A stretch of DNA of 64,000 nt from Nemertoderma westbladi (taxonomy: Eukaryota > Animalia > Xenacoelomorpha): positions 13,667-77,666 of the forward strand of contig JAUCBJ010008826.1 in the NCBI GenBank assembly GCA_032718475.1, read 5' to 3'. Under the pieces are notes generated by a model. It was not told where the DNA came from, ran no database searches, and worked only from the letters and a program-made list of their open reading frames with translations. Position numbers and translations under genes: made by a program. Positions within the stretch are counted from its first letter, which is position 1. The number at the start of each line of letters is the position of its first letter. Of this stretch, positions 18,137 to 55,130 are shown piece by piece.

Positions 18137-18236
18137 TGAGGATCTTGCGCTGTCCGGGGGCTGAGAGGGGTAGGCAGCGACGCTCGCTAGCCTAAATATA
18201 AACTCATTATAATATTGATAAACTCATATAGCAGAT

Positions 18237-19593
18237 ATGACTGAGTTGATAGAAGATGATCTTGGTATCAGGGAGCGATATACTCTACCTTTACAAACGT
18301 TTGTTGATAGCTTGATATGCGGCGACGCTGGTCCAACTACTACAGAGGACGATGGTCGTTATATCGAACCGCCAATGTCCCAGGAGCAACTTACGCGTGA
18401 ATTGGACTATAGAAACTTCACCGCTCGCTATACGCATCGTAATGGTATGCATATGGACTTCTTAACTACTGGTCATCCTATCGATTTACACGATATGGAC
18501 GATGTCGACACCGAAAGGGAAATGGTACTGTTTGAGTATCCTACCCAGCGGAGTCGGAATGATAAACTGAAAATCGAATGCGAAAATTCTATTCGAAATC
18601 GACTCGAAAGAGAAGACATTAAAGAACCGGATAAACGCGGTAACTCCAACGTATATTTGGAATTCTTGAGAGAAACATTGTAAAACCGAATAAATATCAC
18701 CCGCGTTTCCCCTACAAGATGTGCGTCTTTGGTATTATTGCAATGAATGCCCAAGACCCAACCAACAAACGGAAAGACATAAACATCCGTAGAGACGTTG
18801 CTTTAAACACGGTTACTCGCTATATTTACGGGAGTTTCGAGCGAAACTTGTTCGATGTATCACCTACGCTCGCTCGATTCAAACAATCCTTAAATAAACC
18901 TATGATCAGAGTTCCGGAATACTCGGTCAGACCTCCTCATTCCCTAGTTAGACCTCAGACTCTTGATCCTAATAGTATCATGGATCCTCCCGAACTGTAC
19001 TCACTGTTCAAAGATCTAGTGCTACCCGAACAGTTAGTCGGTGGCACTCCGGTTGTGGGCTCCCTAAATATTCGCCCATCTTACCTAGTCGGATTGGGAC
19101 GCGGACATCTAATATCGTCATTCAACCGTATCATCGTCCCTGTTTAACCCGATACAACCTGTCACCGAAGCGGAGGAAAGAGTTGTACGAAACGCGTTGG
19201 ACACTATTCGTCAAAAGATCGGAAAATGAACCTACAATTGTTTAGAGAAACGTAAATTGCAGCAGCAAGTCCAAGCAGTAAACGAATTAATTTTATCTCA
19301 GTTCGATCAGGAAATTCAGAATCTCTAAGAAGATATCGAACTTGGACGACCCTATTCTCTGCAAGAGTTTTGGACAAACGCATCCAACGATAAGCAGAGG
19401 AAAATCAGCTCGAGGAGAAGCATATCGAAATGGACGAGACATCGACCGTAACCCTAAACCTTCAGATGCAATTGTATTGCACCCTTTACCCAGGAGTTAT
19501 AGCCCTCCTAGTAAAGTGGCTCGCCCCAAAGAGAAAAGGACTCTTGCTAGCCTCAAAAAACTGCGTAAACGCCGTCCGCGTAAGAAAGACTAA
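18237..19593 (+). pseudogene. Deleted and frameshifted remnant of accessory ORF3 in copy A
   Basis: The start MTELIEDDLGIRERY... and the end ...KKLRKRRPRKKD both match copy B. There is a small deletion near 18680 and a ~2.7-kb deletion near 19440 that removes the exonuclease and knuckles. Confidence 0.88.
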
Positions 19594-19662
19594 CTGTTTA
19601 GAGTATTTTTATATTTTAGAAACTGTGATTTTTTATATTTTATAGACTTAAATCCCATTTTC

Positions 19663-19671
19663 TGGGAGCGG
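19663..19671 (+). promoter_or_regulatory. Short polypurine tract before the 3' LTR
   Basis: TGGGAGCGG immediately precedes the TGT of the 3' LTR. Same sequence in copy B at 37397-37405 on the minus strand. Confidence 0.65.
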
Positions 19672-20837
19672 TGTAAAAGCTTTTGCGGAATTAGCCAGTT
19701 ATTTTCCCCGTAAAGTACTCTGTAGTTGGTTTAACAGGCAAAAAAGGCCGTATCCTTACTGTACTGGTGTTTTAGTGGACATAAAAAGCCATTTATTCTG
19801 TATGTGTACTTTAGCGGACATAATTAGCAATTCTATGACGCAATGCGCTAGATCCTCTTGAAACAGTGTAGTTACTATGACGACAGCTAACAGCTGAGCT
19901 GTACACGTGTAGCTTTTTCCTTGTTCTCTGGTGTTTCTTTGTTCGGTCAACCAATCAGAGCGATTCTCCTGCTTTTTGTACAGAAACCTCCGGGAAATCG
20001 CGCAATGCATTATGGGTCAATGTTTACATTTTGTCCTGAGCCCAGAAGACCGGCTTTTGGAATCTCTGTGTTTTCAGTCTTTAGCCCAACATTAGTAGGC
20101 TTAATTATAGAACGTATATCTGTTATCTCACTCACCTAATCATATTGTCAACTACAAACACCGCATTTTTACTGCTATTTACTGTCGGTTATTCATTATA
20201 TCAGTGATGGAATATTATTATATTTGGAATACCGATAAATAATTACAAAACCCTCAATCTTCTTGATATACTGAAGGTAAGAGAGACCGGTTACATATAA
20301 CGATTGCGACTTACATTAAAGTGGTTTTGAAGTGAATCTAATGCTATTTCATAGGCACTACATGTATTGGTTGTTGTTCTCTTTATATGTGACTAAAATT
20401 AGTGAAGGTCGGCAGATCGGTGTGCAGCATTGTGCAGTATTGTGTGTGATTGTGACTGATAACAAAGCATCTCCTAAAGAATGCGCCATATACGTGAATC
20501 TATAGCCATCCCGTTGTGTCTAGTTTAAGTCATAACTCTGTTTACATATTTAGAGCGCCACGTCCTAAAGGAACTGTTAATATTTCCTGAAAGTGAATAA
20601 TATTTGTCAGAGATTATATATTACGATCAATCGAATAATACAGTAGGCCTACACCGCAATACGGTTAGGCTTCCGAATCCAGTCTCCCGGGTATATCCAG
20701 CGGGTGAATGGTCGCGCATAGACTGGCTTTGGCTAATGTAGTGTATGAAATACTCGTCATAGGCTAAAGACGATTCATTATCTAGGAGACATCCCAATTT
20801 GGCAGGTTAAACTGCTAAAGGTCTAAAAGCGCGAACA
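19672..20837 (+). repeat. 3' LTR of copy A
   Basis: Direct repeat of 6690-7856. Confidence 0.95.
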
Positions 20838-24168: not shown

Positions 24169-24274
24169 ATTAATTTTGGTACCAGTACAATAAAATGAGA
24201 TCAAAATTGAAAGGGCAAAACTGGTCGATATAAATAACAGTTTTAGATGTAAAGTAAAAGAGATAATTACTTAC

Positions 24275-36243: not shown

Positions 36244-37396
36244 TGTTCGCGCTTTTAGACCTTTAGCAGTTTAACCTGCCAAATTTAGGTGTCTTTTAGG
36301 TTATAAATCGACTTTAGCCTATGACGAGTATTTGATACACTACATTAGCCGAAGCCAGTCTATGCGCGACCATTCACCCGCTGGATATACCCGGGAGACT
36401 GGATTCGGAAGCTCTGACCTTATTGCGGTGTAGGCCTACTGTATTATTCGACTGATCGTTAATATATAATCTCTGACAAATATTATTCACTTTCGGGAAA
36501 TATCAACAGTTCCTTTGGGACGTGGCGCTCTAAGTATGTAAACAGAGTTATGACTTACACTAAACACAACGGGATGGCTAATGATTCACGTATAAAGCGC
36601 ATTCTTTAGGAGATGCTTTGTTATCTGTCACAGTCATGCACACTACCGCACAATGCTGCACACCGATCTGCCGACCTTGACTAATTTTAGTCACATATAA
36701 AGAGAACAGCAACTGACACATGTAGTGCCTATGAAATAGCATTAGATTCATTCAAAACCAATATAATGTAAGTCGCAATTGCTATATGTAACCGGTCTCT
36801 TACCTTCAGTATATCAAGAAGATTGGGGTTTTATGATTATTTATCGATATTATCCAAATATAATAATATTCCATCAACTGATACAATTAATAACCGACAG
36901 TAAATAGCAGTAAATAATGCGGTGTTTGTAGGTGACAATATGATTTGAGCATGTACTGGTTTGATATGGTTTGATTTGCAGTGTGATAGGATAACAGTTA
37001 TACGTTTCTATGATCAAAGCCTACTAATGTTTGGCTAAAGCCTGAAACACAGAATAATTCTAAAGCCGGTCTTCTGGCATCAGGAAAAAAGGTAAACATA
37101 AACCGTAATGCATTGCGCGATTTCCCGGAGGTTTCTGTACAAAGAACATGAGAATCGCTCTGATTGGTTGACCGAACAAAGAAACAAAGGAAAAGTTACA
37201 CGTGTACATATCAGCTGATAGATGTCGTCATAGTAACTACACTGTATCAAGAGGATTTTGGCTTATTGCGACATAAAATCGCTAGTTATGTCCGCTAAAT
37301 TACACATACAGAAGAAATGGCTTTTTATGTCCGTTAAAACACCTACAGAGTACTTTGCGGGGAAAATAACCAGCTAATTCCGCAAAAGCCTTTACA
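36244..37396 (-). repeat. 3' LTR of copy B
   Basis: Direct repeat of 53938-55130, lacking one ~41-bp unit. Confidence 0.95.
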
Positions 37397-37474
37397 CCGC
37401 TCCCAGAAAATGGGATTTAATTCTATAAAATATAAAAAATCACAGTTTCTAAAATATAAAAATACTCTAAACAG

Positions 37475-40400
37475 TTAGTCTTTCTTGCGCGGACGGCGTT
37501 GACGCAGTTTTTTGAGGCTAGCAAGAGTCCTTTTCTCTTTGGGGCGAGCCACTTTACTAGGAGGGCTATAACTCCTGGGTGAAGGGTGCAATACAATTGC
37601 ATCAGAAGGTTTAGGATTACGGTCGGTGTATCCGCCGGTCGAGGTACCTGGTTGATCGATATCAACTTCAGAGGAGCGAGGTCTAACGGCCTTTAGGGCG
37701 TGTCTTAGGACAGCAGCTCCTACTGGTCCCTGACGAGTCATCTGGACGATAGTGGTAGGTGGACCGTGAGTGGTGAGAAACTTCCTCGGTTTAATGGTTC
37801 TTTCCAGCTCGCGTTCTCAGGCTCGATATTCGTAGGGCCATCGATGTACTTCCTGTAACTCAGGGTGCAAGTTGATAAATAAATCGCCATACTCAGGGTC
37901 TTGACGGATGAAATTGATCAAATGGTATGAATTAATATCGTTAGGATTGACGTTCCTGAGATATTTTCGAACAAATTTGGTGGAAATACACTCACCAACA
38001 CACTTCATTAGTTCGTAACTCGGTGTGCGTGTTTTTTGTTCAACAGACGCGAATAGATAAGGATGGAACGCGTAAACTCCTTCGTAGGCGCGTCCAGGGT
38101 AATAGCGATGGCGGGACTCACAATGTAAATCCGCATTCGCTTCCCAAGCTCGGATGTAGCGCAGGGTAATCATCTCATCTACGCTTTCCAGATCGCGGTT
38201 AAAAGGGCAATCATAACTGGCATGTCCTTTAAGTTGACAGTGGTGGCATTGAGTCATAAATTGGGGGCAGACTGCGAAAATGTGCGAGTTATTGAGTCTG
38301 CAATACGCACAATAGATCTCCATCATCGGTTGTTCATGGAAATAGGAGCAGGGTACGTCTGAGTCCATAGGGGTGAAATGATCTCTCTATGCGCATAATC
38401 GGCAACGTTTTCGAGAAACATAGTTGGCGTGCCGATAATCATATGCGGTGAGACATTGTGGACCTTGATACCATTCCAAGACGTAGTCGTTATCGCTGCT
38501 CCGGGGCGCTGTAGGCTGAATCTCCTCAGATTCTAAGCATATTGGTTCGTCTTCCAATTGCATAGCTGAGGTAGGTGCGGCTGTCTCCGCAAGCGAACCC
38601 ACTGTCTGAACTTCCACGACGGAATAACCCGTGGGTATTCGAGGTCTTTGTATAACAGATGAATGTAAGTTCTGTATACAAACGTCCTTGAAAAGGGCGA
38701 ATCCTGCGCTGTCTAACTTCTCTGCAGCTGAGTCTCTTAGGCTGAGTTTGGTCAGAGCGCGGTCCTTGAACTGACTATCAACGTTACGGAACGGAGTCAG
38801 AAAGCGCCTGAAACATTCGAAGCGGATGAATTTATTGTGTTCATCTAGCTTGGCGATTTTGGTTCCAAGTATTAAGGGATGGGCGCGTATGGTACGACTG
38901 CACACATCGGCTAGCCAACCAGCAAGTGCGGCATTTTCAAAGATCATGTATATAGCTAAGGAGGGACGAAGTGGAACGCTCATAAAGCTATACACGGCGC
39001 CAGGTGCGGTCAATGGTCTGTCAAAGTATAATCGAGAATAATGATCTCCATATACTTGTTGGTAGTTGATAGGATTTCCAACCTTGAAATTCCATCCGTA
39101 TTCTTGAAAGGCAAGATGTCCGATGGAGGTTCGTTGTACTTTAGTAATGCCGCTGGGTGTATTTGCATACATAGTGCAGAAGAAACCTCAGCCTTCTGCC
39201 CAGGGAGCAATCAGCTGAGTATCGACGAAAGGGTATGGAATGTTCTCCATGTTCCGAAAGTCGTTTTGGAGATCTCTGTAAACAGCTGAGCCGATTTTAA
39301 GGATTCTTTCTTTAAACAACATCTCGAGCACGGGCTGGGGTAACATCGATCCATCGATACCCATGGCCGATTTGCGCTCGGTGTCGGTGACGTAACGCTG
39401 CGCGATTTCGAATTGTCCATGTCGGAGTTTCTTTTGTATCTCGGTAAGGGTCTCAAAAGAATAATCAATCACATCGGAACACGCTCGAGTAAATACGTGG
39501 GTAGAACCAGGTAGTCCTCGTATATGTATCATGCGCGTAGTTCCCAGTTCTCCAACCGGAACGCTACCTTCGTTATCGTAAGTGACAACTCCATACATCT
39601 CGATAACGTTAAGAGTCTCATTCCACTCTTTAGAGGCGTTTTCTAGAGTCATTCCCACTGGATGCCACAAGGTAGTGCATTCGCTAGCATTAGGTAGATC
39701 TCTATACTTTAAATATTGTGTAGTATATGTTTCTACATCTCCATATCGTTGTATTCTTTCCTCCTCGGATAACACGTCGAGATTCCAGTGTACTAATCGA
39801 GTTTTGATGAATCCATCAAGATTATACGGAGGTATTGTCTCTTTCTCTATTCTGGAAACATTATAGGGTTTTCGAAATGAGTTTACTTTGACTAACTGAT
39901 CCAGATGTTTCTGCAGTTGTTCGACTTCGACAAGATCGAGAGGATTTATTAGTGGTAGAAACCTCAGACTATGTGTAGGATCTTCCGGTTTTACCATGTA
40001 ATATTGCATTAGATTGACATAATAAGGGTGATCTTTGATCCCATAAAACGAGTTCAGTAAAGGTCTAGCGCGTATGTTAACCTCGTGTACCATACGACGG
40101 ACAAGATCCGCTCTATTGTCCGGAGGTTCAACGAGTATACCATCGACACGAGCGGCCTCGATTGGCGGACGTTGCAACATGGGAGCGTCAGTGATAAGAT
40201 CTCGAGATCTTAGGTTGATATCAACCGGTTGAGGCTGTGCCGTGGCGAAGAGTTTGTCTCTGAAATGGGGAACCATCGAAGGATGGATGATGGTTTTAGA
40301 ATAGAGATCCGTCATAAGGATTTGAGCTTCTGGCTGGGCTAAAGCTGCTTCTTCTCTCTCATCCATTTCTATGTGTTTCTCCTCGAGCTGATTTTCCTCA

Positions 40401-41728
40401 GCTTGTTGTTGTAAACGCTCGTCTAGGAACTCTTGTAGAGAGTAGGTTCGTCCACGTTCGATGTCTTCCTCGAGATTCTGGATTTCTCTATCGAACTGAG
40501 GTAAAGCTAATTCTTTCACCGCTTGGACTTGTTGCTGCAATTTGCGTTTCTCTAAACAATCGTAAGTTCCTTTTCCGATCTTCTGCCGAATAGCGTCTAA
40601 CGCGTTTCGTACAACGCTCTCTTCGACTTCGGAAACGGGTTGTATCGGGGTTAAGCCTGGACGGTTGTACGGGTTAAACGGCGATATTAGATGACCGCGT
40701 CCTAATCCGGCTAGGTAGGGTTGGCGAATATCTAGAGAGCCCACTACCGGAGTGCCACCGATTAATTGTTCGGGTAACACAAGATCTTTAAATAGTGAGT
40801 ACAGTTCAGGGGGATCCGTTATACTATTAGGATCAAGCGTTTGAGGTCTCACTGAGGAATGAGGAGGTCTGACCGAGTATTCCGGAACTCTGATCATCGG
40901 TTTATTTAAGGATTGTTTGAGTCGAGCGAGCGTAGGTGATACGTCGAACAGGTTTCGCTCGAAACTCCCATAAGTATATCGTGTAAAACTGTGTTTAGCG
41001 CAACGTCTCCGCGGATGTTTATGTCTTTCCGTTTGCTGATTGGGTCTAGGGCATTCATCACAGTAATACCAAAGACGCACGTCCTGCAGGGGAAACGCGG
41101 GTGATCGTTCTCCAGTTTTACAATATTCCTCCATCTGCTCGAAGCTATCTGGGACGACAGGTAGCGGTCGATCGGCGGTAAGATACATCATAGTAAAATA
41201 GAGTCGTTTGAGTTCTATCATAGGGTCATGATGTATACCTTGAGGATATCGAGTTTCTAGATTTTGTTGACTGGCAATATTGAGATATGTTTCTCTCAGG
41301 AATTCCAGATAATCGTTGAAGTCGCTGCGTTTATCCGGCTCTTCAACGTCTTCCCTTTCGAGTCTGTTTCGAATAGAATTCTCGTGTTCTATTCTCGGTT
41401 TATCGTTCCGACTCCGCTGGGTATGATATTTAAATAAAACCATTTCCCTTTCGGTGTCTACATCGTCCGTATCGTGTAAATCGATAGGATGGCCAGTAGT
41501 TAAGAAGTCCATATACGTACCATTACGATGCGTATAGCGAGCGGTGAATTTTCTATAGTCCAATTCACACGTAAGTTGCTCCTGGGACATTGGCGGTTCG
41601 ATATAACGACCATCATCCTCTGTAGTAGTTGGACCAGCGTCGCCGCGTATCAAGCTATCAACAAACGCTTGTAAAGGTAGAGTATATCGCTCCCTGATAC
41701 CAAGATCATCTTCTATCAACTCAGTCAT
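37475..41728 (-). pseudogene. Accessory ORF3, ~1417 codons with three in-frame stops: putative DEDDy 3'-5' exonuclease plus zinc-knuckle protein
   Basis: ORFs 39188-41728, 38387-39172, 37817-38368 and 37475-37741 share one frame, and the gaps between them are open. Exo-like motifs GVVTYDNEG, LPQPVLEMLFKERILKIGSAVYRDL, FVDTQLIA, SIGHLAFQEYG and LAIYMIFENAA. Knuckles CRLCA*RDH, CAYCRLNNSHIFAVC and CHHCQLKGHASYDC. Confidence 0.8.
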
Positions 41729-41828
41729 ATCTGCTATATGAGTTTATCGATATTATAATGAGTTTATATTTAGGCTAGCGGGCGTCGCTGCCTACCCCTC
41801 TCTGCCCCCGGACAGTGCAAGATCCTCA

Positions 41829-41899
41829 GCGCCGATGTACCGTCGTCGCTGTGTTTTTCGCCAATGTAGTAGCTACACAACGACAACGATAACCGGCAC
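41829..41899 (-). ncRNA. Conserved 71-nt RNA hairpin upstream of ORF3 (copy B)
   Basis: GUGCCGGU/AUCGGCGC outer stem and a fully paired 17-bp inner stem UAUCGUUGUCGUUGUGU/ACACAGCGACGACGGUA with G-U pairs. Confidence 0.6.
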
Positions 41900-43366
41900 A
41901 AGTCACTCCACTGTCCGTCCCAAAGGCTTAGATTTACTTCAGGTTCTTGCTACAGAGTTAGGGCTACTTTCACAATTGCGACTCGCTACTGTAAACACAC
42001 TTTAGTAGTAACATTCACCTATAAACGCACAAATTCCACACAACTGTCACAAATTGTACACATCCGGGCCATTTGTCCGTTAGTCAGTGCCTTCCAGAAT
42101 GCCACGTTATTATTATGTATCCTTGGATACTAGCAGTGTGCTATTTACTCGATATGCTATTCAATGGGGCAAGCTTTCTATTGTTCTTTTAACTCACTTC
42201 TAATTCTAGCGTGGTTGTTGCTATGGTGACATTATGGAAAGCTAGCGGTAGAATTAGGGTAATTCTCATGCATACAGATCTGGGATGCTATTTAATAGTA
42301 ATTCTTTAATTGTCGATATCCCCTTTATACATGATTTTATGAATTTTATCGGCTATTGACTATATATTGGAGATTCTCGCACACTAATACACTTAATAGG
42401 GTGAATCTCCGCTCCCATGATCTATTAATTTATGGAATTTTGGGAATATTATAAATTGTATAAAAATAACAATTTATAAAATTCATTAAAAGATGAATTT
42501 AAATTTATTCCCGTAAATTTTATTATTTAATATTAAATAGACACAATTTTATTCCAGAACATGTCTGGGGACTAGGATCCTTGATTCTAGGAAATTGGTC
42601 TTTTTAAGAATATCGGTAAGTGCTACGATATCTTAATAGACTAGAATTTTAAAGGATCTAAAATTTGACAGATTTTATAAATATTAATAATTAATATTTA
42701 AGATGGGCACCGGTTTATTCCAGAACATGTCTGGGGACGTTAACCATTGATTCTAGAATTTTGTCTTTCAAGTATATCGGTGGGTGCCGCGATATCTTAA
42801 TCGAATAGAATTACAGATGGTCAAAGGGTTTAACAGATTTATTTTGCGTTTTACGCTACTGTTAAAGGGACATCACGCTACTATATGTATTATTTAATAT
42901 ACGGTATGAGAGCAATATCGTAAGAAGCAATGTCAGTGAGAAGAGGCAAGTCGTTTCCAAGGTCTACCCAGAGCTTGGTTTAGCCGAGACACGAGGATCT
43001 GAATTTTGCATTCCTAATACTCTACTTACCAATAATACTTGAATATAGTAGGAGCTTTATTGTACTTTAATAAGTACGGATATTTCATCTTACTGTAGTC
43101 ACGTATTTATAATGTAATACGAACAGTAAGGAAAGAGAAAAAGAATTATTTCTCGCCGTCGCACTAAATATATAATATATAAGTAATTAAGTAATAAACG
43201 CGAATATATATATGGCACTAATCTACTAAATAATCGCTAAAATAACATTCTACTAAATAAAATTAAAGAAAACGATTATAATAAAATTACATAATAATAC
43301 ATACATAAATATAAAATAATGAAACAAATATAAAATAGTATACTCATACACCCACTCCAGATGCTG

Positions 43367-46300
43367 TTATGTTGGGGAGTCCCTAGATGTTTGTTGGATT
43401 AGGGAGGTGGTCATGGGAAGAGTATCTTGCCTTCCATAGTTTCCGGAGAGTTCTCTGTCTCTTTCCAGTAAACATAAACGACCAACTGGGCGATTGAGCT
43501 GCTGTGTCTCGAAGACAATTCCCGGTTTCTTAAAGTTACGTCGCATGACGACGAGTTCTACCGATCGCACTAAACCATCATCCGAGATGTGAGTCTCGAT
43601 GATACGACCTGTCTGCCACCGCTTACGTGGAAGATCTGAATCCACAATAAGGACCATGTCTCCAGCGCTGACGTTTTCTTGCTGCTCAAACCACTTAGTT
43701 CGAAGTTGTAGATAATGTGTGTAATTTGCAGATAATGTTTTTCGAAATGGTCAGCGAAACGACGGGATAACAACTGCATAAGTTGCCAAGTTTGCCGGCA
43801 GTATTCGTCTCCGTCTGTGATTTCCGATCGTGGGAGCATGGCTACAGGTTTCTTCAGTAGGAAGTGCGCGGGTGTTAGCGCTTCCAGGGAATCGGGACTC
43901 GATGAGACTGGCATAAGCGGTCTCTCGTTGAGATAGGCGGCGATTTCCTCCATTAACGTCCGCAAAAGTTCGTCGGTGAGATACGCGCGGCACGGCACTA
44001 TGAAGTGAAATGCGGTCTTCACGCTCCTGATTAATCTCTCCCAACTTCCTCCCCACCAAGGGGCGTCGGCGGCGTTGAAGGTTCAGCTAGACGCTGTTAC
44101 CCTTAGCTGATCGTCCACCTGTCTTTGGTTCCAATCTTTGACGTAAGCCTTGATTTCATTGTTGGCACCAATGAAGTTCGTTCCCTTATCAGATCTCATC
44201 GTGTTACTAGTTCCAAAGCGAGCGATCTGTTGTCGTAAGCTCAATAGGAAGCTGTTGGTAGATAAATCGTTCACCATATCGAGATGGATAGCTCTACAAG
44301 TCATACAAACAAAGATGACACACCATCTCTTGACTATAGTCCTAGCACGATATACTTCAATAGGGCCAAATAAATCTACACCGGTATTAGTAAAAGGTGG
44401 TTCATAGAAGCTTACTCGTTCCCTAGGTAATTCTGCCTCTCGCTGTGTTAAAGGCCTACTGAATGCTTTCCTACAGGGTATGCAGTTCCTAAGAACTTGG
44501 TTCAGAGCTCTACGGGGTTTATAAAAATAATAGCGAGTTCGAATTTCGCTAAGAACTCGTTCTCTACCAGCATGATAAAGATTGCTGTGAACATCTACAA
44601 TCATCTTGATTTGTATTTCCAGATTTCTAATGAGTATGGGAAACTTAGTATCAAAGGATAATGGAGCATTAATTAATCTTCCTCCAACACGTATCAACCC
44701 ATCTATCATTGTGCTAGAGAAACGATCCCTTAAGCGCATCTGTGGATTTCTCAACAACAGGAAGTACTTATCGGAATCCTCATAGCATTGCAGGAGTCTC
44801 AGCATCTGCTTATTGGTTTCTTCATGCTCCTGATAACTGATCTTCTCCTTCAGAAACCTGTCGGATATCTTATATTTGGGAAGATCTTTAACAACATGAA
44901 CCTGCACAGATGTCAGTGGAGCGGTATCACTAGTGGTCTTCGTCCTGGAGTAGTGATGATGAAAACATCGCTTTAAATATGTAATGGCTTTACAGAGCCG
45001 ATTCCAGGAACTATAATGATGTATCGCTCTCTGCAGAAGAGGTGAGAGTCCTTGCGAGACGTCTGGTATTCCAGATTTCCAATCCCTCTCTCTGATTTCC
45101 ACAACAGACTTATTTGTAGCTGTGGGTTTTGGATCCAAAGCGTCGTCTCCGGAAGTGTGTAGTACAGACAGATCTACCACGGGTTTAAATAACTTCGATT
45201 TACTCGCCCGAGTTTTAGGTTTGACTTTCCCCGCTCCCTTGGCCTGTCTAATCTCCGCCGTAGTAAGATGAGGAGGCCATTCATCCACTTCTTTGCTTAG
45301 GAAGTCGGGTCCACCTAACCAGTATGGAGTATCTATCAGTTCTTGTGGAGTTGCTCCCCTGGATGCGATGTCTGCTGGATTAATCGTTCCGGGGCAATGT
45401 CTCCATTGATCCATCTTCGTGCGACTAAGTATAATGGCTACTCTGTTGGTAACGAAGACGCTGAACTGACAGACTTCATTGGTTATATACTCCAACACGA
45501 GTAAAGCATCGGTCCAATAGACAGTTTTCTCCAGTGGATATTCGATCTGTTCTGTTACATTCCGGCCGATGGCTGTAGCGTATAGAGCCGCTTTTAACTC
45601 CGCTCGAGGAACTTTCAACTTGTTGTTTATCAATGCCTTAGAGGTAACCAAGGCGACTTTGATTCCATCTGGAGTTTCCACTCTCAGGTAGGCTACTATA
45701 CCTATTCACATGTCGCTGGCGTCTCCAAACACATGGAGTTGATAGGAATACGTAGGGAGAACATGACCAAAATATGAACGGGAAATTATAAAGTTCTCGA
45801 TGGCTGGTAGAGAATCTTCCCATTTCATCCACTTCTTTAATAGTTCTCCCTTAAGTGGATCGTCCCATGAGTGGTTTTCAAGCCACATTTGTTGTACTAA
45901 ACTCCGAGCAATCAATATAACTGGGCTAATAAATCCCAATGGATCGAAATAAGTGCTCAGGATACTTAAACAAATCCGTTTAGTCCGAACTGGATTATCT
46001 CGCTGTTTGAGCTGGAAAAACAGGATATCTCTCTCTGTGTCCCATTTCAAACCAAGTGTTTTGGTTTCTGGAAGATCGTCTTTGATTAGGTCTAGATCTT
46101 TCGCTCCTCGATCTTCTACCGGAATCGATTCCAGAAACTCACGGGAGTTGCTGGTGAATTTAGTTAATCGAAATCCACCTCTTTTTAAGCACTCTACCGT
46201 TCCTTTGGCGACATCAATGGCTTCTTCCACCGATGGAAGGGACTTTAAATTGTCGTCCATGTATATATCCCGTTTGATGTTGTCGATCACCTCTTTAGAG

Positions 46301-49300
46301 AAGGCGTCCCGGTTGTCATCAGCAGTGGTGCGCACCACTGAGCAGGCGTTTGAAGGGCTTGAGATGATCCCAAAAGCCTGGATGGTCATCCAATACTCCA
46401 CCGGTTTCTGGTTGAGGTCTCCTTCAGGCCACCACAGAAATCGTAGGCTGTCTCGATCCCTATCCAGCGCCTTGACTTGTAAGAACATGCCTTCTATATC
46501 GGAGGCAGAAACGATTTAATATTGTCGTAATCTTAAGAATATTCCCAACAAGGATTGGAGTAAGTTGGGTCCTGATAACAACTCGGAATTAAGGGATTGG
46601 CCCATGTAGAGGGCGGAGCCGTCAAATACTACCCGTACTTCATGGGGTTTACCGGGTTTGGGAACGTAATGATGTGTTAGATAGTACGTTCTCTCAGTTA
46701 TGGTGTTTCTTCCGGTACTCGCTCCGCATATCCCTTGTTAATAAATTTCTTCAACTGAGTCTGGTACATTTCTTTAGCTGAAGCATTTGCCGTAAGGCAT
46801 CGATGTAGTTGAGCAATTCTTTTCTCCGCCAAGGGTCGGTTGTTTATGAATTTTGGTTCTTGCTTTCGGAATGGTAGACCGATTTCATATCTACCTTGAT
46901 CTTTAAGAAAACGTGTAGTTGTCTCCTGGATCTGCTTGGCTCTTTCTTCTTCTACCAATAGGGCCTTATCGTAGGAATTGGGCTCTACAGCCTCTTGAGT
47001 AAAGAATCGCACGGTGTGTTCATCCCGAGTCTTCACGTTATAGCGCTCTATTACGTCATTCAGTTCGTCGTTATAGTCGACTTGTCCTGATGGACGAATG
47101 TGTTGACATAGGTTCACTTGGTTTTGCCAAGTCTCGTTTTCCGTAAGGAGGTTGATGGTATTCTCCTCGTCGAAGAGTTGGTGGATATCGTCATTATCTG
47201 AGGAGTATGGTGTTCCCTCAGTTGGGTCGTCTACCTCACTGATCTCCGCTTCCCATTCACTTACTTGGTATACCCGTTCTTTTGGTAACCTTTCCATGAG
47301 AGTTCTACGGGAAGGGCCAGTAAATTACCAACCTACTCTAGTTCTTCCCGCATAGGCTTGTAGTGGTTGCGGTTGAGCAGGCCGTTTCTCCAATGTCTCA
47401 AGCGCCTCATGCGCATTTTGGCCGATGAGTATTTGCACTCCAGGGTAATATGTGTTGAATCTAGGTATATTAAGCTGCTGGGTGAAATCGTCCTCATCCC
47501 AGTTATAAGGTTCTACTTCGCTGGTAGCGAAGTTCTTTATCGCCACCATTTTTACTGACCTTATACTGTGTTCTCCTAGTTCATCCTGGGGGGTGGACAA
47601 CACACCTACATAATAATCCGCTATTACTGTAGATTTCCAAACCTGCATAATTCCTGACATGTTTAACTTAGTTCGGAACTTGGGTTGTCCAGCAAAGATG
47701 TCTTCGGCAGTTCTTTGTCGATGAATGTCCCTGTGCTACCGGAGTCAAGTAGGGCGTTCACTATATAACTCCTTTCAGGTCCGTGGACCCTCAACTGCAC
47801 TACGGGAAATTCTCGGATTCCTACATTGGAAGTTGGCGCATCTAGGTATATTAAGCTGCTGGGTGAAGTCGTCCTCATCCCAGTTATAAGGTTCTACTTC
47901 GCTGGTAGCGAAGTTCTTTATCGCCACCATTTTTACTGACCTTATACTGTGTTCTCCTAGTTCATCCTGGGGGGTGGACAACACACCTACATAATAATCC
48001 GCTATTACTGTAGATTTCCAAACCTGCATAATTCCTGACATGTTTAACTTAGTTCGGAACTTGGGTTGTCCAGCAAAGATGTCTTCGGCTAGTTCTTTGT
48101 CGATGAATGTCCCTGTGCTACCGGAGTCAAGTAGGGCGTTCACTATATAACTCCTTTCAGGTCCGTGGACCCTCAACTGCACTACGGGAAATTCTCGGAT
48201 TCCTACATTGGAAGTTGGTGCTTTCCAAGATGGTTGTCGGTCAGAAGTAGTTAGGGGGGGCTCGCTGTCGGTGTCCTTTTCGTACGTAAGTGCTTGATAC
48301 ACTGCGGTATTTATCAGGTAACAGGATTCGTTTTCGTCGGAGAATTCGTCCGTATAGAATCCTTCCATCTCAGAACTTTGGTCAGTGTCGTTCACATCAC
48401 TGAATTGGACATGTAGTTCGGACTCACTTACCTGACTCGGGCTGTTTCGTTCGAATTCAGTGTGCAACAAGATATGATGTTTTGCGCCGCACTTTGCACA
48501 CCTTGCGTCGGAGTAACAGGTTCGCCGTTGGTGTCCTTGTCTGAGGCAATTATAACACAACCGCTTATCCCACATGACTTCCCGTCTATCCTTTAATGAT
48601 TTCGTTAGGAATTCATCACACACATTCAAACGGTGGGGCCCGTCACACAGCGCACATTTCGATTTGATGTTACTTACCTTATTTTGAGTGACGTTGTGCA
48701 CACTCGTTCTTTCTTCGGGCTTTCTTACATGAATTCTCTTAGGAGACGTAGGAGGAGTTTTTCTTACCTGTTCTCTCCTGTCATTGGTTCGAGACTTGAA
48801 TTTACTTACGTCTTTAGGCGTTTTGTTGACATAATAAGATCTTTCAGTGTCTTTCCCGCTGTCCTCTTCTTGAGAAGCCTGGCTTTCACCGTCGTCGGTA
48901 TAACACACTGGTGTTACCTTTCTCCTAGAAACGGGTTTCTCACTTACCTTATTTTCCGGTGTCTTCTCTCTGGACTGCTTTAGGAGCTGTAATTTTACTT
49001 CTCCATCTAAGAATGACATGAGATCAGCCATGGTAGGGTCTCGTCGTTGTTGTTCCATCATATATAACACTTTCTTATCCCAGTGAGTACCTACTCCACC
49101 CTTCGGTAAAGTAGAGGCCACGGCTCCAATAACCATAGAACTCTGATATTCATGAGACTTACCTAGCCAATCTAATTGTCTACAGATCTCCTGAATCTCA
49201 TCAGAAAACTCTATAATCCCGCTGCTAATGAACTTTCGGGGGGCTACCAATTTTGCATAGAAATACCTAGCTATGTTATTCCTATTACCATACCTGATGT

Positions 49301-51802
49301 TTAGTGTATCCCAAACTTGTCTTAATCCATCTGGATGTCCAATAAACTTTAACGCCATTAACTTGGAGATCCTTCCAAGCACTCGATGAGGAATCTAAGT
49401 TTCTCTCCGTTAGATAGCACAGAGTTCTGTATGTTATCTTTGTAGTATTCATTAAAAGGTAACCATTTCATCTCATCTCCATTGAACTTGACGATCTCTC
49501 CCACCTTTACCGCTTGACGGGCTTCGGTTCTAGCCATTTGACGTGTAAAACTTTCTTGGGCCATCGTATTATTTAATATCGAGTTATCGGTATATAAATT
49601 TCTCGGATTATTATCAGGTCTATATGGAATATCATTGTCAACAGGTTTATAATTACCCTTAATAGGGTTTTCTATAGGAGTTTCTACTTCACTAGCAGTA
49701 TAGATGTGTGTAGGCTCCACACCTTGCACATGAAATACTTCAGACCTAACAGGTTGACACATTGTTACTGGGGTTGGTGGTATACCCCTTTGGGTATTTA
49801 CTAATTTATCTCTCTCTAATGCGATACTCTGCTGCACTTCTTGCAACTCTAACCTACTTTCCCTTACCGTGCCCTTGAACTGCTGAACAGTTCCTTCCAT
49901 CTCCCGGACCTGCTGAGAGGAGCACTTACGGTGTTCCATCAGCTGCCCGAGCAGGAGACCCATCTCCCGTCGTCCCTCAGCTACCCACTCGACCGCCGAA
50001 GCGGGAGTCGCCAACGTAGTAGCGGGCGAGCGAGAGACGACGGGCGATAAATTCTTGATATCTCGCTCAGCGTCCAGGACGGGTTCGGACTCGTGAACAG
50101 TCCTACTGGGCATAGGTAGTTTAGTACTGTGCAAAGGGAATTTAGAGGTAGGTTCTGGGAGTACAGGTGTCTCTATCACCGAAGGGGTGGCTTCGAGAAC
50201 AGGCCTAATTATTTCAGGCTCATCTACTATAGTAGGGAGTCTTTCTATTTTAATTATTTGGTCTATGGGTTCTGTACTACCTAAGTCTGTGCAAGCTAGT
50301 TGCCTTCTAACAGCTGGGGGCAAGTCAGGCAATTTCTGACTGTGAGGCATTCTTCTACGTCTGCTTAGACGAGATCTATTTCCTCCGCCTTCAGGATCGT
50401 TGGTATCGCCTTCATCAGATGATGTATATCCCTGTCTTTTAGGAGTAGATCGACTCATCATCTGCATTTGACTAGCTGTTAACTGTTTATTTATGCAGTC
50501 TTGATTCTCTTGGATATTTTCCAACTCTAGTTGGGTAGTCTCTTCAGACGCTCTTCGTTCTGCTTCTGCCACTGCTATCTTTCTTTCTGCTTCTACTGCT
50601 GCTGCTGCCGCTTTTGCCTCTGCCGCTGCCGCTTTTCTTTCCGCTTCTGCCGCTGCCATTGCCGCTGCTGCTGTCTTTCTGTCTTCTATACGTTTTTTCT
50701 TGACTTGTTCTTCTTGGACCCTAGCGATGCGGAGTCTTTCATCAAATTTAGCTTGGTTCGCAGCTAACATTTCCGCATCTATTGCGTCCAACACAAGCTT
50801 AGCTCCTTCACTATTAGGGCGAAGTCCAGACAACCGTCTCCTCAACTCTTTGTCACCTAGAAATCGTTGATAGTCTGACAGATAGATGTCAATAGCATCC
50901 CTCTTATGCGGTTTCTCTGCTGTCGCTTCACTTTCCACTTGGAAAAGGTAGCGTCTGTTGATTCTCCATGGGTTGAGCACTCAGCCAGCTGAGATTTCCA
51001 CTGGGCCGTTCCTTGAACTTTGAGACCCACCCGCTGAAACCAAGTCTTTACGGCAACTTGCAACGACGTGTCTTGTCTTCTTTTCGAAGCCTCCTCAAAG
51101 GCCGATAGGATTAGTCTGATTCTTAGAATTCTTTCTCGAACTTGATAAAGCAGCTCTCCCTGCTCTTGAGGTCCTTGGGGTTGTCGAACCAGTTGTTCCT
51201 CTAATCGCTCCAAAGAGCTGAAGAATCCCTGTACGTATCCTGCTGCCGACCTCTTCCACACAGCTGGATCGCTGGTGTCTTTTGACACTCCCATCCTGTA
51301 TATGTCTTCCCAGGCAGCTTCCGATAAGTCAAACGGGAGTCCGGGTCCGGGGAAGTTCCATTGCGACTCGACAATAGACTTCAGTTCTTCCCTTGTGTAT
51401 CCCGCATAACTATCCTTGGTCGATCGCTTACTTCTCGCCCAATCAATCTGGTGTTCCTCCACCGCAATCAATACCCTAATGAGTACGGCTGCAGGAAGGA
51501 TGAGAAGGGGATCCGAATAAACCGCATCTGCCATCTTTGGGCCGCTGAGAAATAAGTTCTCGGCTCGAGTGTTGCTGCTGTTCAACAGCTGCCTCTTGGT
51601 CCCGCTTGAACTGAGCTCGAGTGCCTATGATAGACCTACGGTGTTGGACTAGCCTAGGGTCTGATACTACTACTGGAGGGATGATCTTTCTTACAGTAGG
51701 AGGTGAGTTGAACTTCGGTCTCACACATTCCACACTCCTGTCTGGGTCACAGATGGTTGTATCTAGGAGACTGTCTGACAGGTTTTGCTTTGTGTCAGAC
51801 AT
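43367..51802 (-). pseudogene. gag-pol: BEL/Pao gag-pol polyprotein of copy B, broken by several frameshifts/stops and a duplication
   Basis: Gag knuckles CALCDGPH/CYNCLRQGH/CAKCGAKHHILLH. Protease ALLDSGS. RT IYMDD and FRLTKFTSNS. RNase H LHVFGDAS, PRAELKAA and YWTDA. Integrase H..H...CIPC, GVDLFGP, SDKGTNF and LTPAHFL. Confidence 0.95.
47461..48220. repeat. ~381-bp tandem duplication of the protease region in copy B
   Basis: CTAGGTATATTAAGCTGCTGGGTG at 47461 and 47842. The ALLDSGS motif appears twice. Confidence 0.9.
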
Positions 51803-51939
51803 GTTTGTTTGTACAGTTGAATGCCTACTGCTATATTACAGTTAAAGCAAGTCTAGTAATTCAGTATCAACTGTTAGCCTAGTAATTAATTACTGATACT
51901 GTTACTCAGTGTAACGTGATATATATATAATATATTAGA

Positions 51940-52435
51940 ATACCTGTATACACTTATAGTATATATATAAGTATTATTACAGACTAGATTTGTCACAGAA
52001 TACCGGTATATAATTTCAGCGCAAATATATAGCAATATATAATAAGCCTATCGTGAATACCGGTATACAGCTTACACTTATAGTATATATAAGTATTATT
52101 GCAGACTAGGTTTGTCACAGAATACCGGTATATAATTTCAGCACAAATATATAGAAGTATATAATAAGCCTATCATAAATACCGGTATGCAGCTTACACT
52201 TATAGTATATATAAGTATAATTATAGACTAGAATTAATTACAGAATACCGGTATATAATTTCAGCACAAATATATAGAAATATATAATAAGCCTATCATA
52301 AATACCGATATGCAGCTTACACTTATAGTATATATAAGTATAATTATAGACTAGAATTAATTACAGAATACCGGTATATAATTTCAGCACAAATATATAG
52401 AAATATATAATAAGCCTATCGTGAATACCGGTATG
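51940..52435. repeat. ~120-bp tandem repeats in the 5' leader of copy B (about 4 copies; fewer in copy A)
   Basis: Recurring CAGAATACCGGTATATAATTTCAGC...ATAATAAGCCTATC. Confidence 0.8.
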
Positions 52436-53925
52436 TCAATTATTTTAGAATAATTGAATTTCTGAATTTTAGGGTTACTTGGTTACTTTACTTTACTTTA
52501 TTACCGTTATTTAAGCAGTGGTCCAACTGATATTAAGACCTAATTGATGTATGACAGGCCTACTATTTTATAAATCGGTTTCAGTTGATTTATAATATAT
52601 ATACCCGTATAATGGGTTTTTGTCAATGTTTGAAATAAATGTTATTATTTCTGGGAAAGAGTCACCGCACAGAAGCTGTACGCTCTCAGTGAAGTGCTAC
52701 AAAACAAATAAAACAAATAATTCTAATTTGCCTAAGTTACTTATTACTACAAATTACGTACAATACGGGGTGAGATTACAATCTCTAAATAAACACAAAA
52801 ATTATACGTACAAATTTTTAGGGGTAATTTTACAAGAAGTCTACAAACCAGCCTAACAAAGGGTTAGAATATCTGGTTATTACAACGGACAGGATACTAC
52901 GGTATTTGAAGATAATAAGCAGTAGTAAATATATTGCGTTGTCCAGATAGAAAAAATACCACCGTCTGACGACTTATAGCCGTATCGCTATAAGTACTAC
53001 GTTATGTTTCACGGAGTGTTCCTACCTAGAAGTTAATTACCGCAGCCTACCAGAGCCAACGTGCCTATTAACCACACAAATATACTGCCTACACACTAAT
53101 TACCTTCGGAAAGCACTGTACACTAAACCCTCAATTAGGTACAAGCACTTATACAACAAATAACCAGCCGTTAAAAATACTTGTACAGCTAAAAGAACCA
53201 CGGTATCTGCCGGAGTGACCAAAGCATAAAATCTCCAGTCTTTACCTACGCCAAACAGCCCTGATGTAGTACCGGGGTTAATTTAACTATAACGGTATGT
53301 ATAACAAGCACAATTACTGTAGGAATAAACTTGGGGTATGAATGTTGCGAATAATCGCATAAACTCTGAATAATAAATATTACGCTACCCTTACAGACTA
53401 CACAAACAAAATACAGACCAAACGCTGGCAGACTACTATCAAGCCTAAATAAACCACAGTATATGCAGACTCCGAAATGGTTAGTTAGTATGCGTTCTAA
53501 CCGAGTAGTACGACTTATTCTTTCGGGGGGATTTACCTTACAGCTCTGGAAGCCCACCACGTTCCTAACTAGTACTTTATCGGACATACACTCTACACAC
53601 ACTGCAATCTCTTCAGACTTAACAACAGTCAGACAACAGTCCAGCCTACAAATTACCTGTACAATCTGAGCAGGCTTACACGTCTTCTGCTCAATATTAA
53701 CTTACAGATAAATAAAACTGACAGAAATAAATAAGCTACAAAAGAAACAAGGGGTGTACAGTCCCTAATCTCTTAAACAGCCTACCGGTATACAATATCA
53801 CAATCGAAATAATACTAGTACGTGTACTGCGGTAAGTTCCGGTTCGGGTGGTTAGGCAGTTAGGCCTACTAGTTACCGGTCGACCGGTACTTTAGTCTTT
53901 ATTGCCTACATCGCAATAAAGATCC

Positions 53926-53937
53926 TATAACTGTTAT
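53926..53937 (-). promoter_or_regulatory. Putative self-priming PBS of copy B
   Basis: Element-sense ATAACAGTTATA abuts the 5' LTR and is complementary to the LTR segment at 54684-54695. Confidence 0.7.
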
Positions 53938-55130
53938 TGCTCGCGCTTTTAGACCTTTAGCAGTTTAACCTGCCAAATTTAGGTGTCTTTTAGGTTATAA
54001 ATCGACTTTAGCCTATGACGAGTATTTGATACACTACATTAGCCGAAGCCAGTCTATGCGCGACCATTCACCCGCTGGATATACCCGGGAGACTGGATTC
54101 GGAAGCTCTGACCTTATTGCGGTGTAGGCCTACTGTATTATTCGACTGATCGTTAATATATAATCTCTGACAAATATTATTCACTTTCGGGAAATATCAA
54201 CAGTTCCTTTGGGACGTGGCGCTCTAAGTATGTAAACAGAGTTATGACTTACACTAAACACAACGGGATGGCTAATGATTCACGTATAAAGCGCATTCTT
54301 TAGGAGATGCTTTGTTATCTGTCACAGTCATGCACACTACCGCACAATGCTGCACACCGATCTGCCGACCTTCACTAATTTTAGTCATATAAAGAGAACA
54401 GCAACTGACACATGTAGTGCCTATGAAATAGAATTAGATTCATTCCAAAACCAATGTAATGTAAGTCGCAATTGCTATATGTAACCGGTCTCTTACCTTC
54501 AGTATATCAAGAAGATTGGGGTTTTATGATTATTTATCGATATTATCCAAATATAATAATATTCCATCAACTGATACAATTAATAACCGACAGTAAATAG
54601 CAGTAAATAATGCGGTGTTTGTAGGTGACAATATGATTTGAGCATGTACTGGTTTGATATGGTTTGATTTGCAGTGTGATAGGATAACAGTTATACGTTT
54701 CTATGATCAAAGCCTACTAATGTTTGGCTAAAGCCTGAAACACAGAATAATTCCAAAGCCGGTCTTCTGGCATCAGGAAAAAAGGTAAACATAAACCGTA
54801 ATGCATTGTGCGATTTCCCGGAGGTTTCTGTACAAAGAACATGAGAATCGCTCTGATTGGTTGACCGAACAAAGAAACAAAGGAAAAGTTACACGTGTAC
54901 ATATCAGCTGATAGATGTCGTCATAGTAACTACACTGTATCAACAGGATTTTGGCTTATTGCGACATAAAATCGCTAGTTATGTCCGCTAAAGTACACAT
55001 ACAGAAGAAATGGCTTTTTATGTCCACTAAAACACCGGTACAGTAAGGAAACGGTTATTTATGTCCGTTAAAACACCTACAGAGTACTTTGCGGGGAAAA
55101 TAACCAGCTAATTCCGCAAAAGCCTTTACA
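53938..55130 (-). repeat. 5' LTR of copy B
   Basis: TG...CA ends. Direct repeat of 36244-37396. Confidence 0.95.

What the first reader, a model, noticed from the sequence alone, without database searches (positions are those of the whole stretch)
37475..41728. BEL/Pao retrotransposon encoding a giant non-env ORF3 with a DEDDy 3'-5' exonuclease and zinc knuckles
Seen: after pol and a 1.6-kb spacer, copy B has one ~1417-codon frame that ends ~80 nt before the 3' LTR. Copy A keeps both its ends, so it belongs to the family. Inferred from motif recognition: ~39650-38900 reads like a WRN/EXD2/Mut-7/RNase D (DNA_pol_A_exo1) domain. Exo I is VVTYDNE, Exo II is LPQPVLEMLFKERILKIGSAVYRDL, then FVDTQ and SIGHLA, and Exo III is YMIFE (D to E). 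Three Cys/His knuckles and an NLS-like KKLRQRRPRKKD tail follow, and there is a CDEC..H..C..H motif in the N-terminal half. No signal peptide or clear TM helix, so it is not env. Established: DEDDy ORF3s have been reported in bdelloid rotifer retroelements. A ~1400-aa multi-knuckle version in a BEL/Pao element is not something I recognise. Possible roles are primer or RNA-end trimming, or antagonising piRNA/siRNA silencing.
Basis: partly seen in the sequence, partly recalled or inferred. Interest (0 to 1): 0.9.

Follow-up and report, generated by a model that had tools for sequence, protein, structure and literature searches.

The report
Giant exonuclease gene in BEL/Pao retrotransposon
A large, high-copy jumping gene carries an extra gene, kept by selection, whose protein is predicted to be an RNA-end-trimming enzyme with zinc-knuckle grips; the element also lacks the usual tRNA start site and likely primes its own copying, a step this enzyme might finish.

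Summary
The finding holds. An 18.9-kb BEL/Pao element carries a 1417-codon third gene whose three stops are private to this copy. Selection keeps it: dN/dS is 0.16 against copy A, and family variants are mostly silent.

Pfam misses the nuclease. One remote homologue (P0001) shares D-x-E/D/Y-x3-E motifs and three knuckles, and its model matches EXD2, RNase D and WRN (E 6e-7, Z 11.7). The exonuclease-plus-knuckle layout resembles trypanosome RNase D. The fold of the window protein is inferred through that homologue, and activity is untested.

Added here: there is no tRNA primer site. The bases right after the 5' LTR pair with an LTR site (14/14 and 12/12, with one compensatory change), as in self-priming Tf1.

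Best guess: an active RNA 3'-trimmer acting on the element's own RNA, possibly finishing the primer (0.35). Anti-silencing and binding-only roles remain open.

Rotifer gypsy-type elements have published DEDDy ORF3s. This scan noted exonuclease ORF3s in Gypsy elements, and self-primed BEL/Pao elements, separately on other DNA. The combination was not found. New variant; interest 0.62.

The parts
37475..41728 (-). ORF3 of element B, 1417 codons, broken by three in-frame stops private to this copy
38864..39673 (-). Predicted DEDDy-type 3'-5' exonuclease domain (residues ~686-955); acidic set D718, E720, D819, E931 with Y927; holds the stop at codon 847
   Evidence: fold through homologue P0001
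38207..38404 (-). Three tandem Cys/His knuckles (residues 1109-1174); the homologue P0001 also has three
40991..41062 (-). N-terminal Cys/His cluster (C223, C226, C243, H246), kept in copy A; no family match
39701..41728 (-). N-terminal 676 residues of ORF3; no known family; the first ~455 codons are under purifying selection
37475..37520 (-). Basic C-terminal tail (NLS-like by inspection only), kept in copy A
36244..55130 (-). Element B, 18,887 bp, BEL/Pao LTR retrotransposon with a 5-bp target-site duplication
53938..55130 (-). 5' LTR of B (1193 bp; 99.3% identical to the 3' LTR, gaps aside)
36244..37396 (-). 3' LTR of B (1153 bp)
53924..53937 (-). Primer-binding position of B: no tRNA site; the first 12 nt are complementary to a site in the LTR
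54684..54697 (-). LTR site complementary to the primer-binding position (candidate self-primer); its copy in the 3' LTR is 36991-37004
37397..37405 (-). Purine-rich tract abutting the 3' LTR (PPT position)
43367..51624 (-). gag-pro-pol, broken by stops and frameshifts: DUF1759, knuckle, protease, RT (YMDD), Pao peptidase A17/RNase H, integrase, DUF5641
41729..43366 (-). Non-coding spacer with a 9-nt copy of the PPT (42417), a duplicated ~160-nt unit and a TATA-like motif just upstream of the ORF3 ATG
6690..20837 (+). Element A, a deleted sister copy (LTRs 98.8% identical, 5-bp TSD)
18237..19593 (+). ORF3 remnant of copy A: both ends kept, exonuclease and knuckles deleted
7857..7870 (+). Primer-binding position of A, 14/14 complementary to LTR site 7131-7144
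3932..5117 (-). Solo LTR C of the same family with a 5-bp TSD; carries the B-type LTR site

Best explanation
ORF3 is a family-wide accessory gene of a BEL/Pao retrotransposon, kept by purifying selection, that is predicted to encode a DEDDy 3'-5' exonuclease with tandem zinc knuckles and likely trims RNA 3' ends, most probably the element's own RNA during its likely self-primed reverse transcription. Shown: the gene, its selection, the motifs, and the LTR-to-primer-site complementarity with covariation. Inferred through a homologue: the EXD2/RNase D fold. Inferred by analogy to trypanosome RNase D: the knuckles hold single-stranded RNA and feed it to the active site. Inferred and untested: the transcript starts near LTR position 434-442, its first ~14 nt pair with the primer site, the loop is nicked just downstream, and the exonuclease chews the single-stranded overhang back to the duplex, leaving a 3'-OH flush with the LTR end. 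The protein would act in trans, so deleted copies such as A could still move. Odds by step: real selected gene 0.95; DEDDy fold 0.85; catalytically active 0.7; self-priming 0.85; exonuclease acting on the element's own RNA or primer about 0.35 overall.
For: Selection: dN/dS 0.16 (CI 0.10-0.24, 344 codons, A vs B); shifted frames give 0.86 and 1.18; gag-pro gives 0.17. Among the 40 of 1212 variant rows shown from 4 runs, changes private to B are 19 replacement-or-stop to 2 silent, and variants among other copies are 4 to 15 (Fisher p 1.4e-5). All three stops are read as other letters in at least 99% of depth in run X1. Homologue: P0001 is the only hit, E 2.3e-4 among 1.84 billion proteins, pairwise E 4e-12. 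Its Exo I, II and III motifs align, including Glu in Exo III, and it also has three knuckles. Model of P0001's domain: 59 PDB chains at E<=0.001, and all 43 rows listed are DEDD-type nucleases or their homologues, led by EXD2 at 6e-7. VIA Z is 11.7 (rmsd 3.9, 120 aligned) for EXD2. The Atlas's 10 best family-bearing hits share a family or clan with DNA_pol_A_exo1, but the top score is 0.86, a lead only. TbRND's knuckles raise RNA binding and cleavage (PMC7797062, passages). Self-primer: a 14-nt match in A (0 of 10000 simulated LTRs) and a 12-nt match in B (3 of 10000). In each element it is the only such internal position (1 of 11785; 1 of 16472), one pair differs on both sides between A and B, and pair probability is 0.98 if the RNA starts at the site. 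An indel-rich 10-40-nt zone begins one base 3' of the site in all three LTR types, as an imprecise cut followed by trimming would allow.
Against: Pfam, NCBIfam and PDB sequence searches give no significant exonuclease hit (best are PF01612 at E 0.2 on P0001 and RNase D at E 2.2). The window domain folded alone gave pLDDT 33. The P0001 model has mean pLDDT 49, with residues 119-226 (including Exo III) under 50. Selection was measured mostly outside the nuclease, since copy A lacks it and no polymorphic silent row inside it is among the 40 shown. Exo III has Glu, not Asp, and RNA-binding homologues (Egalitarian, EXD1) also rank high. Tf1 makes its primer with RNase H alone (PMC7175516, passages). 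Earlier scan notes describe self-primed BEL/Pao elements without mention of an exonuclease, and exonuclease ORF3s in Gypsy elements (unchecked), so the two traits need not be coupled. The transcript start is unknown: pair probability falls to 0.0 (A) and 0.69 (B) if it lies 150 nt upstream. The genomic context of P0001 is unknown.
Confidence: 0.35

Rival explanations
1. The nuclease is active but is a counter-silencing factor: it trims or destroys host small RNAs (piRNA or siRNA) or their precursors, and self-priming is an independent trait done by RNase H.
For: Structural neighbours include small-RNA pathway enzymes (Nibbler, EXD1, RICE1, QIP; their roles are recalled). TbRND trims short guide RNAs. 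The family holds many diverged copies (28560 contigs laid in X1). 8 of 18 non-stop private changes are CpG-type transitions, which suggests host methylation of copies. ORF3 is separate from gag-pol, has a basic tail and 680 extra residues. Rodriguez et al. raise such a role.
Against: No direct link to small RNAs was found. piRNA 3' ends are usually 2'-O-methylated, which hinders such enzymes (recalled). The same structural neighbours fit any RNA-trimming role.
Confidence: 0.27
2. The domain is a weak or inactive nuclease used as an RNA-binding adaptor, like Egalitarian or EXD1, for export, transport or packaging of the long genomic RNA.
For: Exo III Asp is replaced by Glu in both homologues. 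Egalitarian-RNA complexes and EXD1 are among the top 20 Foldseek ranks. The element is 18.9 kb, well over the 4.2-10 kb of the family.
Against: All four acidic positions and the Tyr are kept in two proteins only 27-29% identical, which is hard to explain without metal binding. EXD2 ranks first.
Confidence: 0.18
3. The enzyme acts on DNA: it proofreads or polishes cDNA 3' ends (non-templated additions at strand transfer, ends before integration), helping to copy a ~17-kb RNA.
For: WRN, EXD2 and family-A polymerase exonucleases are among the structural matches. The genome is unusually long.
Against: The exonuclease-plus-CCHC layout has an RNA-trimming precedent. The indel hotspot in the LTR persists.
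Confidence: 0.12
4. ORF3 is a captured host gene or a decaying passenger with no role for the element, or the exonuclease resemblance is chance.
For: Three stops in this copy; deleted in copy A; only one remote homologue; no direct family hit.
Against: dN/dS equal to that of gag-pro; stops private to B and family variants mostly silent; same domain order in P0001.
Confidence: 0.05

Closest known systems
DEDDy ORF3 of bdelloid rotifer LTR retrotransposons Juno and Vesta, and of Terminons (PMC5408684: parts 1-4 of 5 of the text read; PMC6431247: passages)
   Same: RNase D-like exonuclease gene in the env position after pol; no TM segments; acidic residues kept; function untested.
   Different: The host element here is BEL/Pao, which the rotifer paper does not list among its clades (Juno, Vesta, TelKA, Mag). 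The motif is D-E-D-E here and DEED there. The text read mentions no knuckles in those ORF3s. Here the gene has 1417 codons and shows purifying selection.
Trypanosoma brucei RNase D (TbRND), exonuclease plus four CCHC fingers (PMC7797062: passages)
   Same: DEDDy domain followed by tandem CCHC knuckles. TbRND structures are among the Foldseek hits (E 1e-5), and the Atlas's first hit for P0001 is a mostly Euglenozoan exo+CCHC cluster.
   Different: TbRND is a cellular enzyme of under 400 residues with a short linker. ORF3 has three knuckles, a ~150-residue linker, Glu in Exo III and long unknown N- and C-terminal parts. EXD2 scores higher, so orthology is not shown.
Tf1/sushi-group self-priming (PMC7175516, PMC4600332, PMC6317226: passages)
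   Same: No tRNA site; the bases right after the 5' LTR pair with an LTR segment; a U5 hairpin lies just upstream of the LTR end.
   Different: Described there for Ty3/gypsy chromoviruses and some plant copia lineages, not BEL/Pao. The match is 12-14 nt here and 11 in Tf1. Tf1 uses RNase H alone. The transcript start is not mapped here.
Belpaoviridae / BEL-Pao elements (ICTV profile PMC8742986: whole text; PMC3118150: passages)
   Same: Domain set and order, LTR length near the upper limit, PPT position, TG...CA ends.
   Different: 18.9 kb against 4.2-10 kb; no tRNA-Arg/Gly primer site; third gene is not env-like; RNase H-integrase region at most 34% identical over its length to any relative.

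Membership tests
BEL/Pao (Belpaoviridae) | gag-pol with PR-RT-RH-IN order and Pao-type domains | tested here: met
   DUF1759, Asp protease, Peptidase_A17 (E 8e-22), Integrase_H2C2 and DUF5641 (E 3e-18) in that order; 640 pol relatives at E<=1e-20, and all 120 listed carry PF05380
BEL/Pao (Belpaoviridae) | LTRs of 0.2-1.2 kb and a PPT before the 3' LTR | tested here: met
   LTRs 1153-1193 bp, TG...CA, 5-bp TSDs, purine-rich tract
BEL/Pao (Belpaoviridae) | 18-nt PBS complementary to host tRNA-Arg or tRNA-Gly (ICTV profile) | tested here: not met
   The post-LTR sequence has no TGG start and pairs with the element's own LTR; host tRNA genes were not available. The element is therefore filed as a deviant of the BEL/Pao lineage by its proteins, not as a typical member.
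BEL/Pao (Belpaoviridae) | Genome of 4.2-10 kb | tested here: not met
   18,887 bp, including a 381-bp tandem duplication and leader repeats
DEDDy 3'-5' exonucleases (RNase D/EXD2/WRN group) | DnaQ-like RNase H fold | tested here: met
   Met for homologue P0001 modelled with ORF3 as second row; transferred to ORF3 by homology. The ORF3 domain folded alone was uninformative.
DEDDy 3'-5' exonucleases (RNase D/EXD2/WRN group) | Exo I D-x-E and Exo II Asp | tested here: met
   D718, E720 and D819 align with P0001's D-x-E and Asp
DEDDy 3'-5' exonucleases (RNase D/EXD2/WRN group) | Exo III Y-x3-D | tested here: inconclusive
   Y-x3-E in both proteins, a conservative change; this part of the model is below pLDDT 50
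DEDDy 3'-5' exonucleases (RNase D/EXD2/WRN group) | Pfam PF01612 match above cut-off | tested here: not met
   No hit on ORF3; E 0.2, 11.9 bits against a cut-off of 23.6 on P0001
DEDDy 3'-5' exonucleases (RNase D/EXD2/WRN group) | Two-metal 3'-5' exonuclease activity | not testable with these tools
   Needs a bench assay
ZFD-containing RNase D (TbRND type) | Tandem CCHC knuckles C-terminal to the exonuclease | tested here: met
   Three knuckles, one canonical and two variant; three in P0001
ZFD-containing RNase D (TbRND type) | Orthology to trypanosomatid RND | not tested
   No alignment or tree with TbRND was made; EXD2 ranks higher structurally
Rotifer-type DEDDy ORF3 | DEED motif and clustering with Juno/Vesta/Athena ORFs | tested here: inconclusive
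Tf1-type self-primed elements | PBS complementary to an LTR segment, flush with the LTR end | tested here: met
   14/14 and 12/12, with one compensatory pair and chance controls
Tf1-type self-primed elements | The LTR segment is the 5' end of the transcript | not testable with these tools
   No transcript data; PAS-like hexamers lie 110-290 nt downstream of the site and none lies beside it, which fits but does not show it
env-like ORF3 | Signal peptide and TM anchor | tested here: not met
   Maximum 19-residue hydropathy 1.33; 0.46 in the first 40 residues

The most novel reading that the evidence does not exclude
A BEL/Pao lineage has replaced tRNA priming by self-priming and captured a knuckle-armed 3'-5' exoribonuclease to finish its own primer, trimming a nicked RNA back to the primer duplex. 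This would be a new route to start reverse transcription and the first assigned job for a retrotransposon DEDDy ORF3.
Probability: 0.2. Interest if true: 0.87.

Novelty: new variant of a known kind. Interest (0 to 1): 0.62.

Why it matters
Why retrotransposons carry non-env third genes is open: the rotifer DEDDy ORF3s were described without a shown function and without a test of selection on them. This element shows such a gene in another superfamily, under selection as strong as gag-pro, in an architecture with a solved RNA-trimming precedent. It also sits in an element whose primer is defined to the base by its own sequence. That gives a concrete substrate (the 14-bp LTR-primer-site duplex with a 3' overhang) and an intact natural homologue to assay. 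If the enzyme instead attacks small RNAs, it would be a retrotransposon-encoded suppressor of animal silencing. The self-priming signature also departs from the ICTV description of the family as tRNA-primed.

Tried and rejected
No whole genome is held, so copies were studied through copy A and contigs of public runs.

Searches that found nothing: whole ORF3 against 5.8 billion proteins, 0 of 7988 candidates at E<=0.001; P0001 found only itself among 7989; the exonuclease alignment against viral contigs (0 of 54 pattern matches) and metagenome contigs (0 of 346); PDB by sequence; NCBIfam (0 of 2 proteins); the P0001 domain against the 120 pol relatives (0 of 120); Rfam and ARAGORN (6 sub-threshold matches, 0 tRNAs).

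The single-sequence fold of the window domain was useless. No RNA holder was listed, which is no evidence on expression. Contig depth was not used to rank parts or to count copies. The N-terminal 676 residues remain without an Atlas result. A per-codon variant table for the nuclease domain alone was not obtained, so selection inside it is unmeasured.

Rejected: env; an artefactual frame; a primer taken from the poly(A) end, since no PAS-like hexamer lies beside the site, though this is not excluded; a splice-built primer, since the site is contiguous in all five LTRs. An RT tree (39 of 118 eligible rows, chosen as named rows plus the 24 most similar) left copy B on a lone long branch with weak support and names no clade.

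Literature: ten searches listed no paper with a DEDDy ORF3 or self-priming in BEL/Pao; I saw listings and abstract starts, and opened 12 papers. I recall, unverified, that nematode Cer (BEL-group) elements were once said to carry an exonuclease-like accessory domain. Malik et al. 2000 was not held, and searches did not confirm it. Rodriguez et al., who cite that paper, state that DEDDy exonucleases had not been reported in retrotransposons. Levin 1996 and Gladyshev 2007 were not held. Repbase and GyDB entries and all supplements were unseen and could hold a prior description.
Full report
The observation. The minus-strand frame 41728-37475 has 1417 codons with internal stops at codons 847, 1114 and 1304. 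Shuffles of the same letters give 75 stops on average and never fewer than 49 in 2000 trials. The protein has no signal peptide or TM helix by hydropathy. Of the three knuckles, one is canonical, two are variants, and the first holds a stop.

The element. ORF3 lies in element B (36244-55130, 18,887 bp), between a 1.64-kb spacer and the 3' LTR. The LTRs end TG...CA, are 99.3% identical apart from gaps and are flanked by a 5-bp duplication. Pfam finds DUF1759, a protease, Peptidase_A17, an integrase zinc finger and DUF5641 in BEL/Pao order. The pol search found 640 relatives at E<=1e-20; the 120 listed all carry PF05380, those aligned over the full length are 26-34% identical, and the named ones come from aquatic invertebrates and fish. 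A tree of 39 of 118 eligible rows leaves B on a lone long branch. The window also holds a deleted sister copy A (6690-20837) and a solo LTR C (3932-5117), each with its own duplication. B's gag and pol are also broken.

The gene is real and selected. Copy A keeps both ends of ORF3 but has lost 2.7 kb, including the nuclease and knuckles. Over 344 codons, trimmed around indels, dN/dS is 0.16 (CI 0.10-0.24). Shifted frames give 0.86 and 1.18, antisense frames 0.34-1.60, the spacer 0.61-0.69 and gag-pro 0.17. Contigs of four runs (at most 3 samples, one possibly the window's source) cover all 30 bins. Of 1212 variant rows, 40 were shown, chosen by the tool as best supported. Using run X1, 21 are private to B (at least 99% of depth differs): 16 replacements, 3 stops and 2 silent. 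The other 19 vary among copies: 15 silent and 4 replacements (p 1.4e-5). So B's stops arose in this copy, and the family gene is under purifying selection. None of the 40 rows falls on a catalytic codon, but no polymorphic silent row falls inside the nuclease either, so selection there is not measured directly.

What the protein is. Sequence searches with ORF3 itself found no exonuclease family. A search of residues 477-1113 against 1.84 billion representatives gave one hit, P0001 (648 aa, E 2.3e-4; pairwise E 4e-12). P0001 has the same order, nuclease then three knuckles, although the knuckles were not in the query. The alignment matches D718-x-E720, D819 and Y927-x3-E931 with the same residues in P0001, including Glu in place of the Exo III Asp. 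A model of P0001's domain with ORF3 as second row has mean pLDDT 49; blocks over residues 1-118 score 54-82 and the rest is low. Foldseek gives 59 chains at E<=0.001, led by EXD2 (6e-7), then Egalitarian, TbRND, EXD1, RNase D, RICE1, NrnC, Nibbler, RRP6 and WRN. The independent aligner gives EXD2 Z 11.7, rmsd 3.9, 120 aligned. The Atlas ranks an exo+CCHC cluster first at 0.86, a lead only. I take the fold as likely (0.85), inferred through the homologue. The layout has a solved precedent: TbRND joins a DEDD domain to four CCHC fingers that raise RNA binding and cleavage (PMC7797062, passages). The N-terminal 676 residues have no match.

The ICTV profile gives BEL/Pao an 18-nt tRNA primer site. 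Here the bases directly after the 5' LTR are instead complementary to a site at LTR position ~434-455: 14 of 14 in A and the first 12 in B. Simulated LTRs reach this in 0 and 3 of 10000 trials, and no other internal position has such a match (1 of 11785; 1 of 16472). A and B differ at one position on both sides of the pair. The 3' end of the site would sit flush with the LTR end, which is the geometry of Tf1 self-priming (PMC7175516 and PMC4600332, passages). The pairing is predicted at 0.98 if the RNA starts at the site, and less if it starts further upstream. One base 3' of the site begins a 10-40-nt zone that differs in length among A, B and C, between conserved flanks. PAS-like hexamers lie downstream, not beside the site.

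Mechanism. I commit to an active, knuckle-assisted 3'-5' exoribonuclease acting in trans on the element's own RNA, most simply by trimming a nicked transcript back to the primer duplex (0.35). The gene, its selection, the motifs and the complementarity are shown; the fold is inferred; activity and substrate are untested. Against it, Tf1 needs only RNase H. The rivals are counter-silencing (0.27), an RNA-binding adaptor (0.18), cDNA polishing (0.12) and a passenger or chance match (0.05).

Comparison and novelty. DEDDy ORF3s are published for rotifer Juno and Vesta elements and for Terminons, with a DEED motif and no shown activity (PMC5408684, parts 1-4 of 5 read; PMC6431247, passages). Ten literature searches listed none for BEL/Pao and no self-primed BEL/Pao. 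No earlier scan note holds BEL/Pao with an exonuclease ORF3, and none matches ORF3 or P0001 by sequence. A recalled report of an exonuclease-like domain in nematode Cer elements could not be checked, and database entries and supplements were unseen. Other papers opened for passages only, without bearing on the verdict: PMC5718144, PMC11662393, PMC13524379, PMC6317226, PMC3118150, PMC3601003. The roles given for Nibbler, EXD1, RICE1, QIP and Egalitarian are recalled.

Verdict. A new variant of a known kind: a D-E-D-E exonuclease with three knuckles in a 1417-codon ORF3, under strong selection, in an oversized and probably self-primed BEL/Pao element. Interest 0.62. The most novel reading, an element-encoded exonuclease that finishes the self-primer, has probability 0.2 and would deserve 0.87.

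Noticed in passing
window 53924-53937 with 54684-54697 (B); 7857-7870 with 7131-7144 (A): Self-priming signature with one compensatory pair, in place of a tRNA primer site.
   Followed up: yes
window 42409-42417 (B) and 17550-17558 (A): A 9-nt exact copy of the 3' PPT in the pol-ORF3 spacer, kept in both copies; possibly a central plus-strand primer.
   Followed up: partly
window ~41729-41770 (-): TATA-like motif about 35 nt before the ORF3 ATG, conserved in A and B; ORF3 may have its own promoter.
   Followed up: partly
window 42513-42840: Duplicated ~160-nt unit in the spacer, each copy with a short perfect palindrome and predicted hairpins.
   Followed up: partly
window ~53890-53916 (-): A hairpin with a 9-bp perfect stem directly after the primer site, kept in A and B, and a U5 hairpin just before the LTR end.
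   Followed up: partly
window 37628-40366: The 2.7-kb deletion junction of copy A is also seen in contigs of runs X1, X2 and X3; it may be copy A itself or a spread non-autonomous derivative.
   Followed up: no
window 47459-48089: 381-bp tandem duplication in the protease-RT region of B.
   Followed up: no
window 51995-52485 and 10273-11124: Tandem repeats in the long (~2.1 kb in B) leader: 123-bp units in B, 142-bp units in A.
   Followed up: no
window 56824-61415: An unrelated element with ~850-bp terminal inverted repeats, 99% identical, of unknown kind.
   Followed up: no
window 2183-3931 and 21608-24174: Inverted duplication of ~1.7 kb with a 22-bp minisatellite; solo LTR C is inserted in that satellite.
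   Followed up: no
ORF3 of B: 8 of 18 non-stop changes private to B are CpG-type transitions, which suggests that the host methylates these elements.
   Followed up: partly
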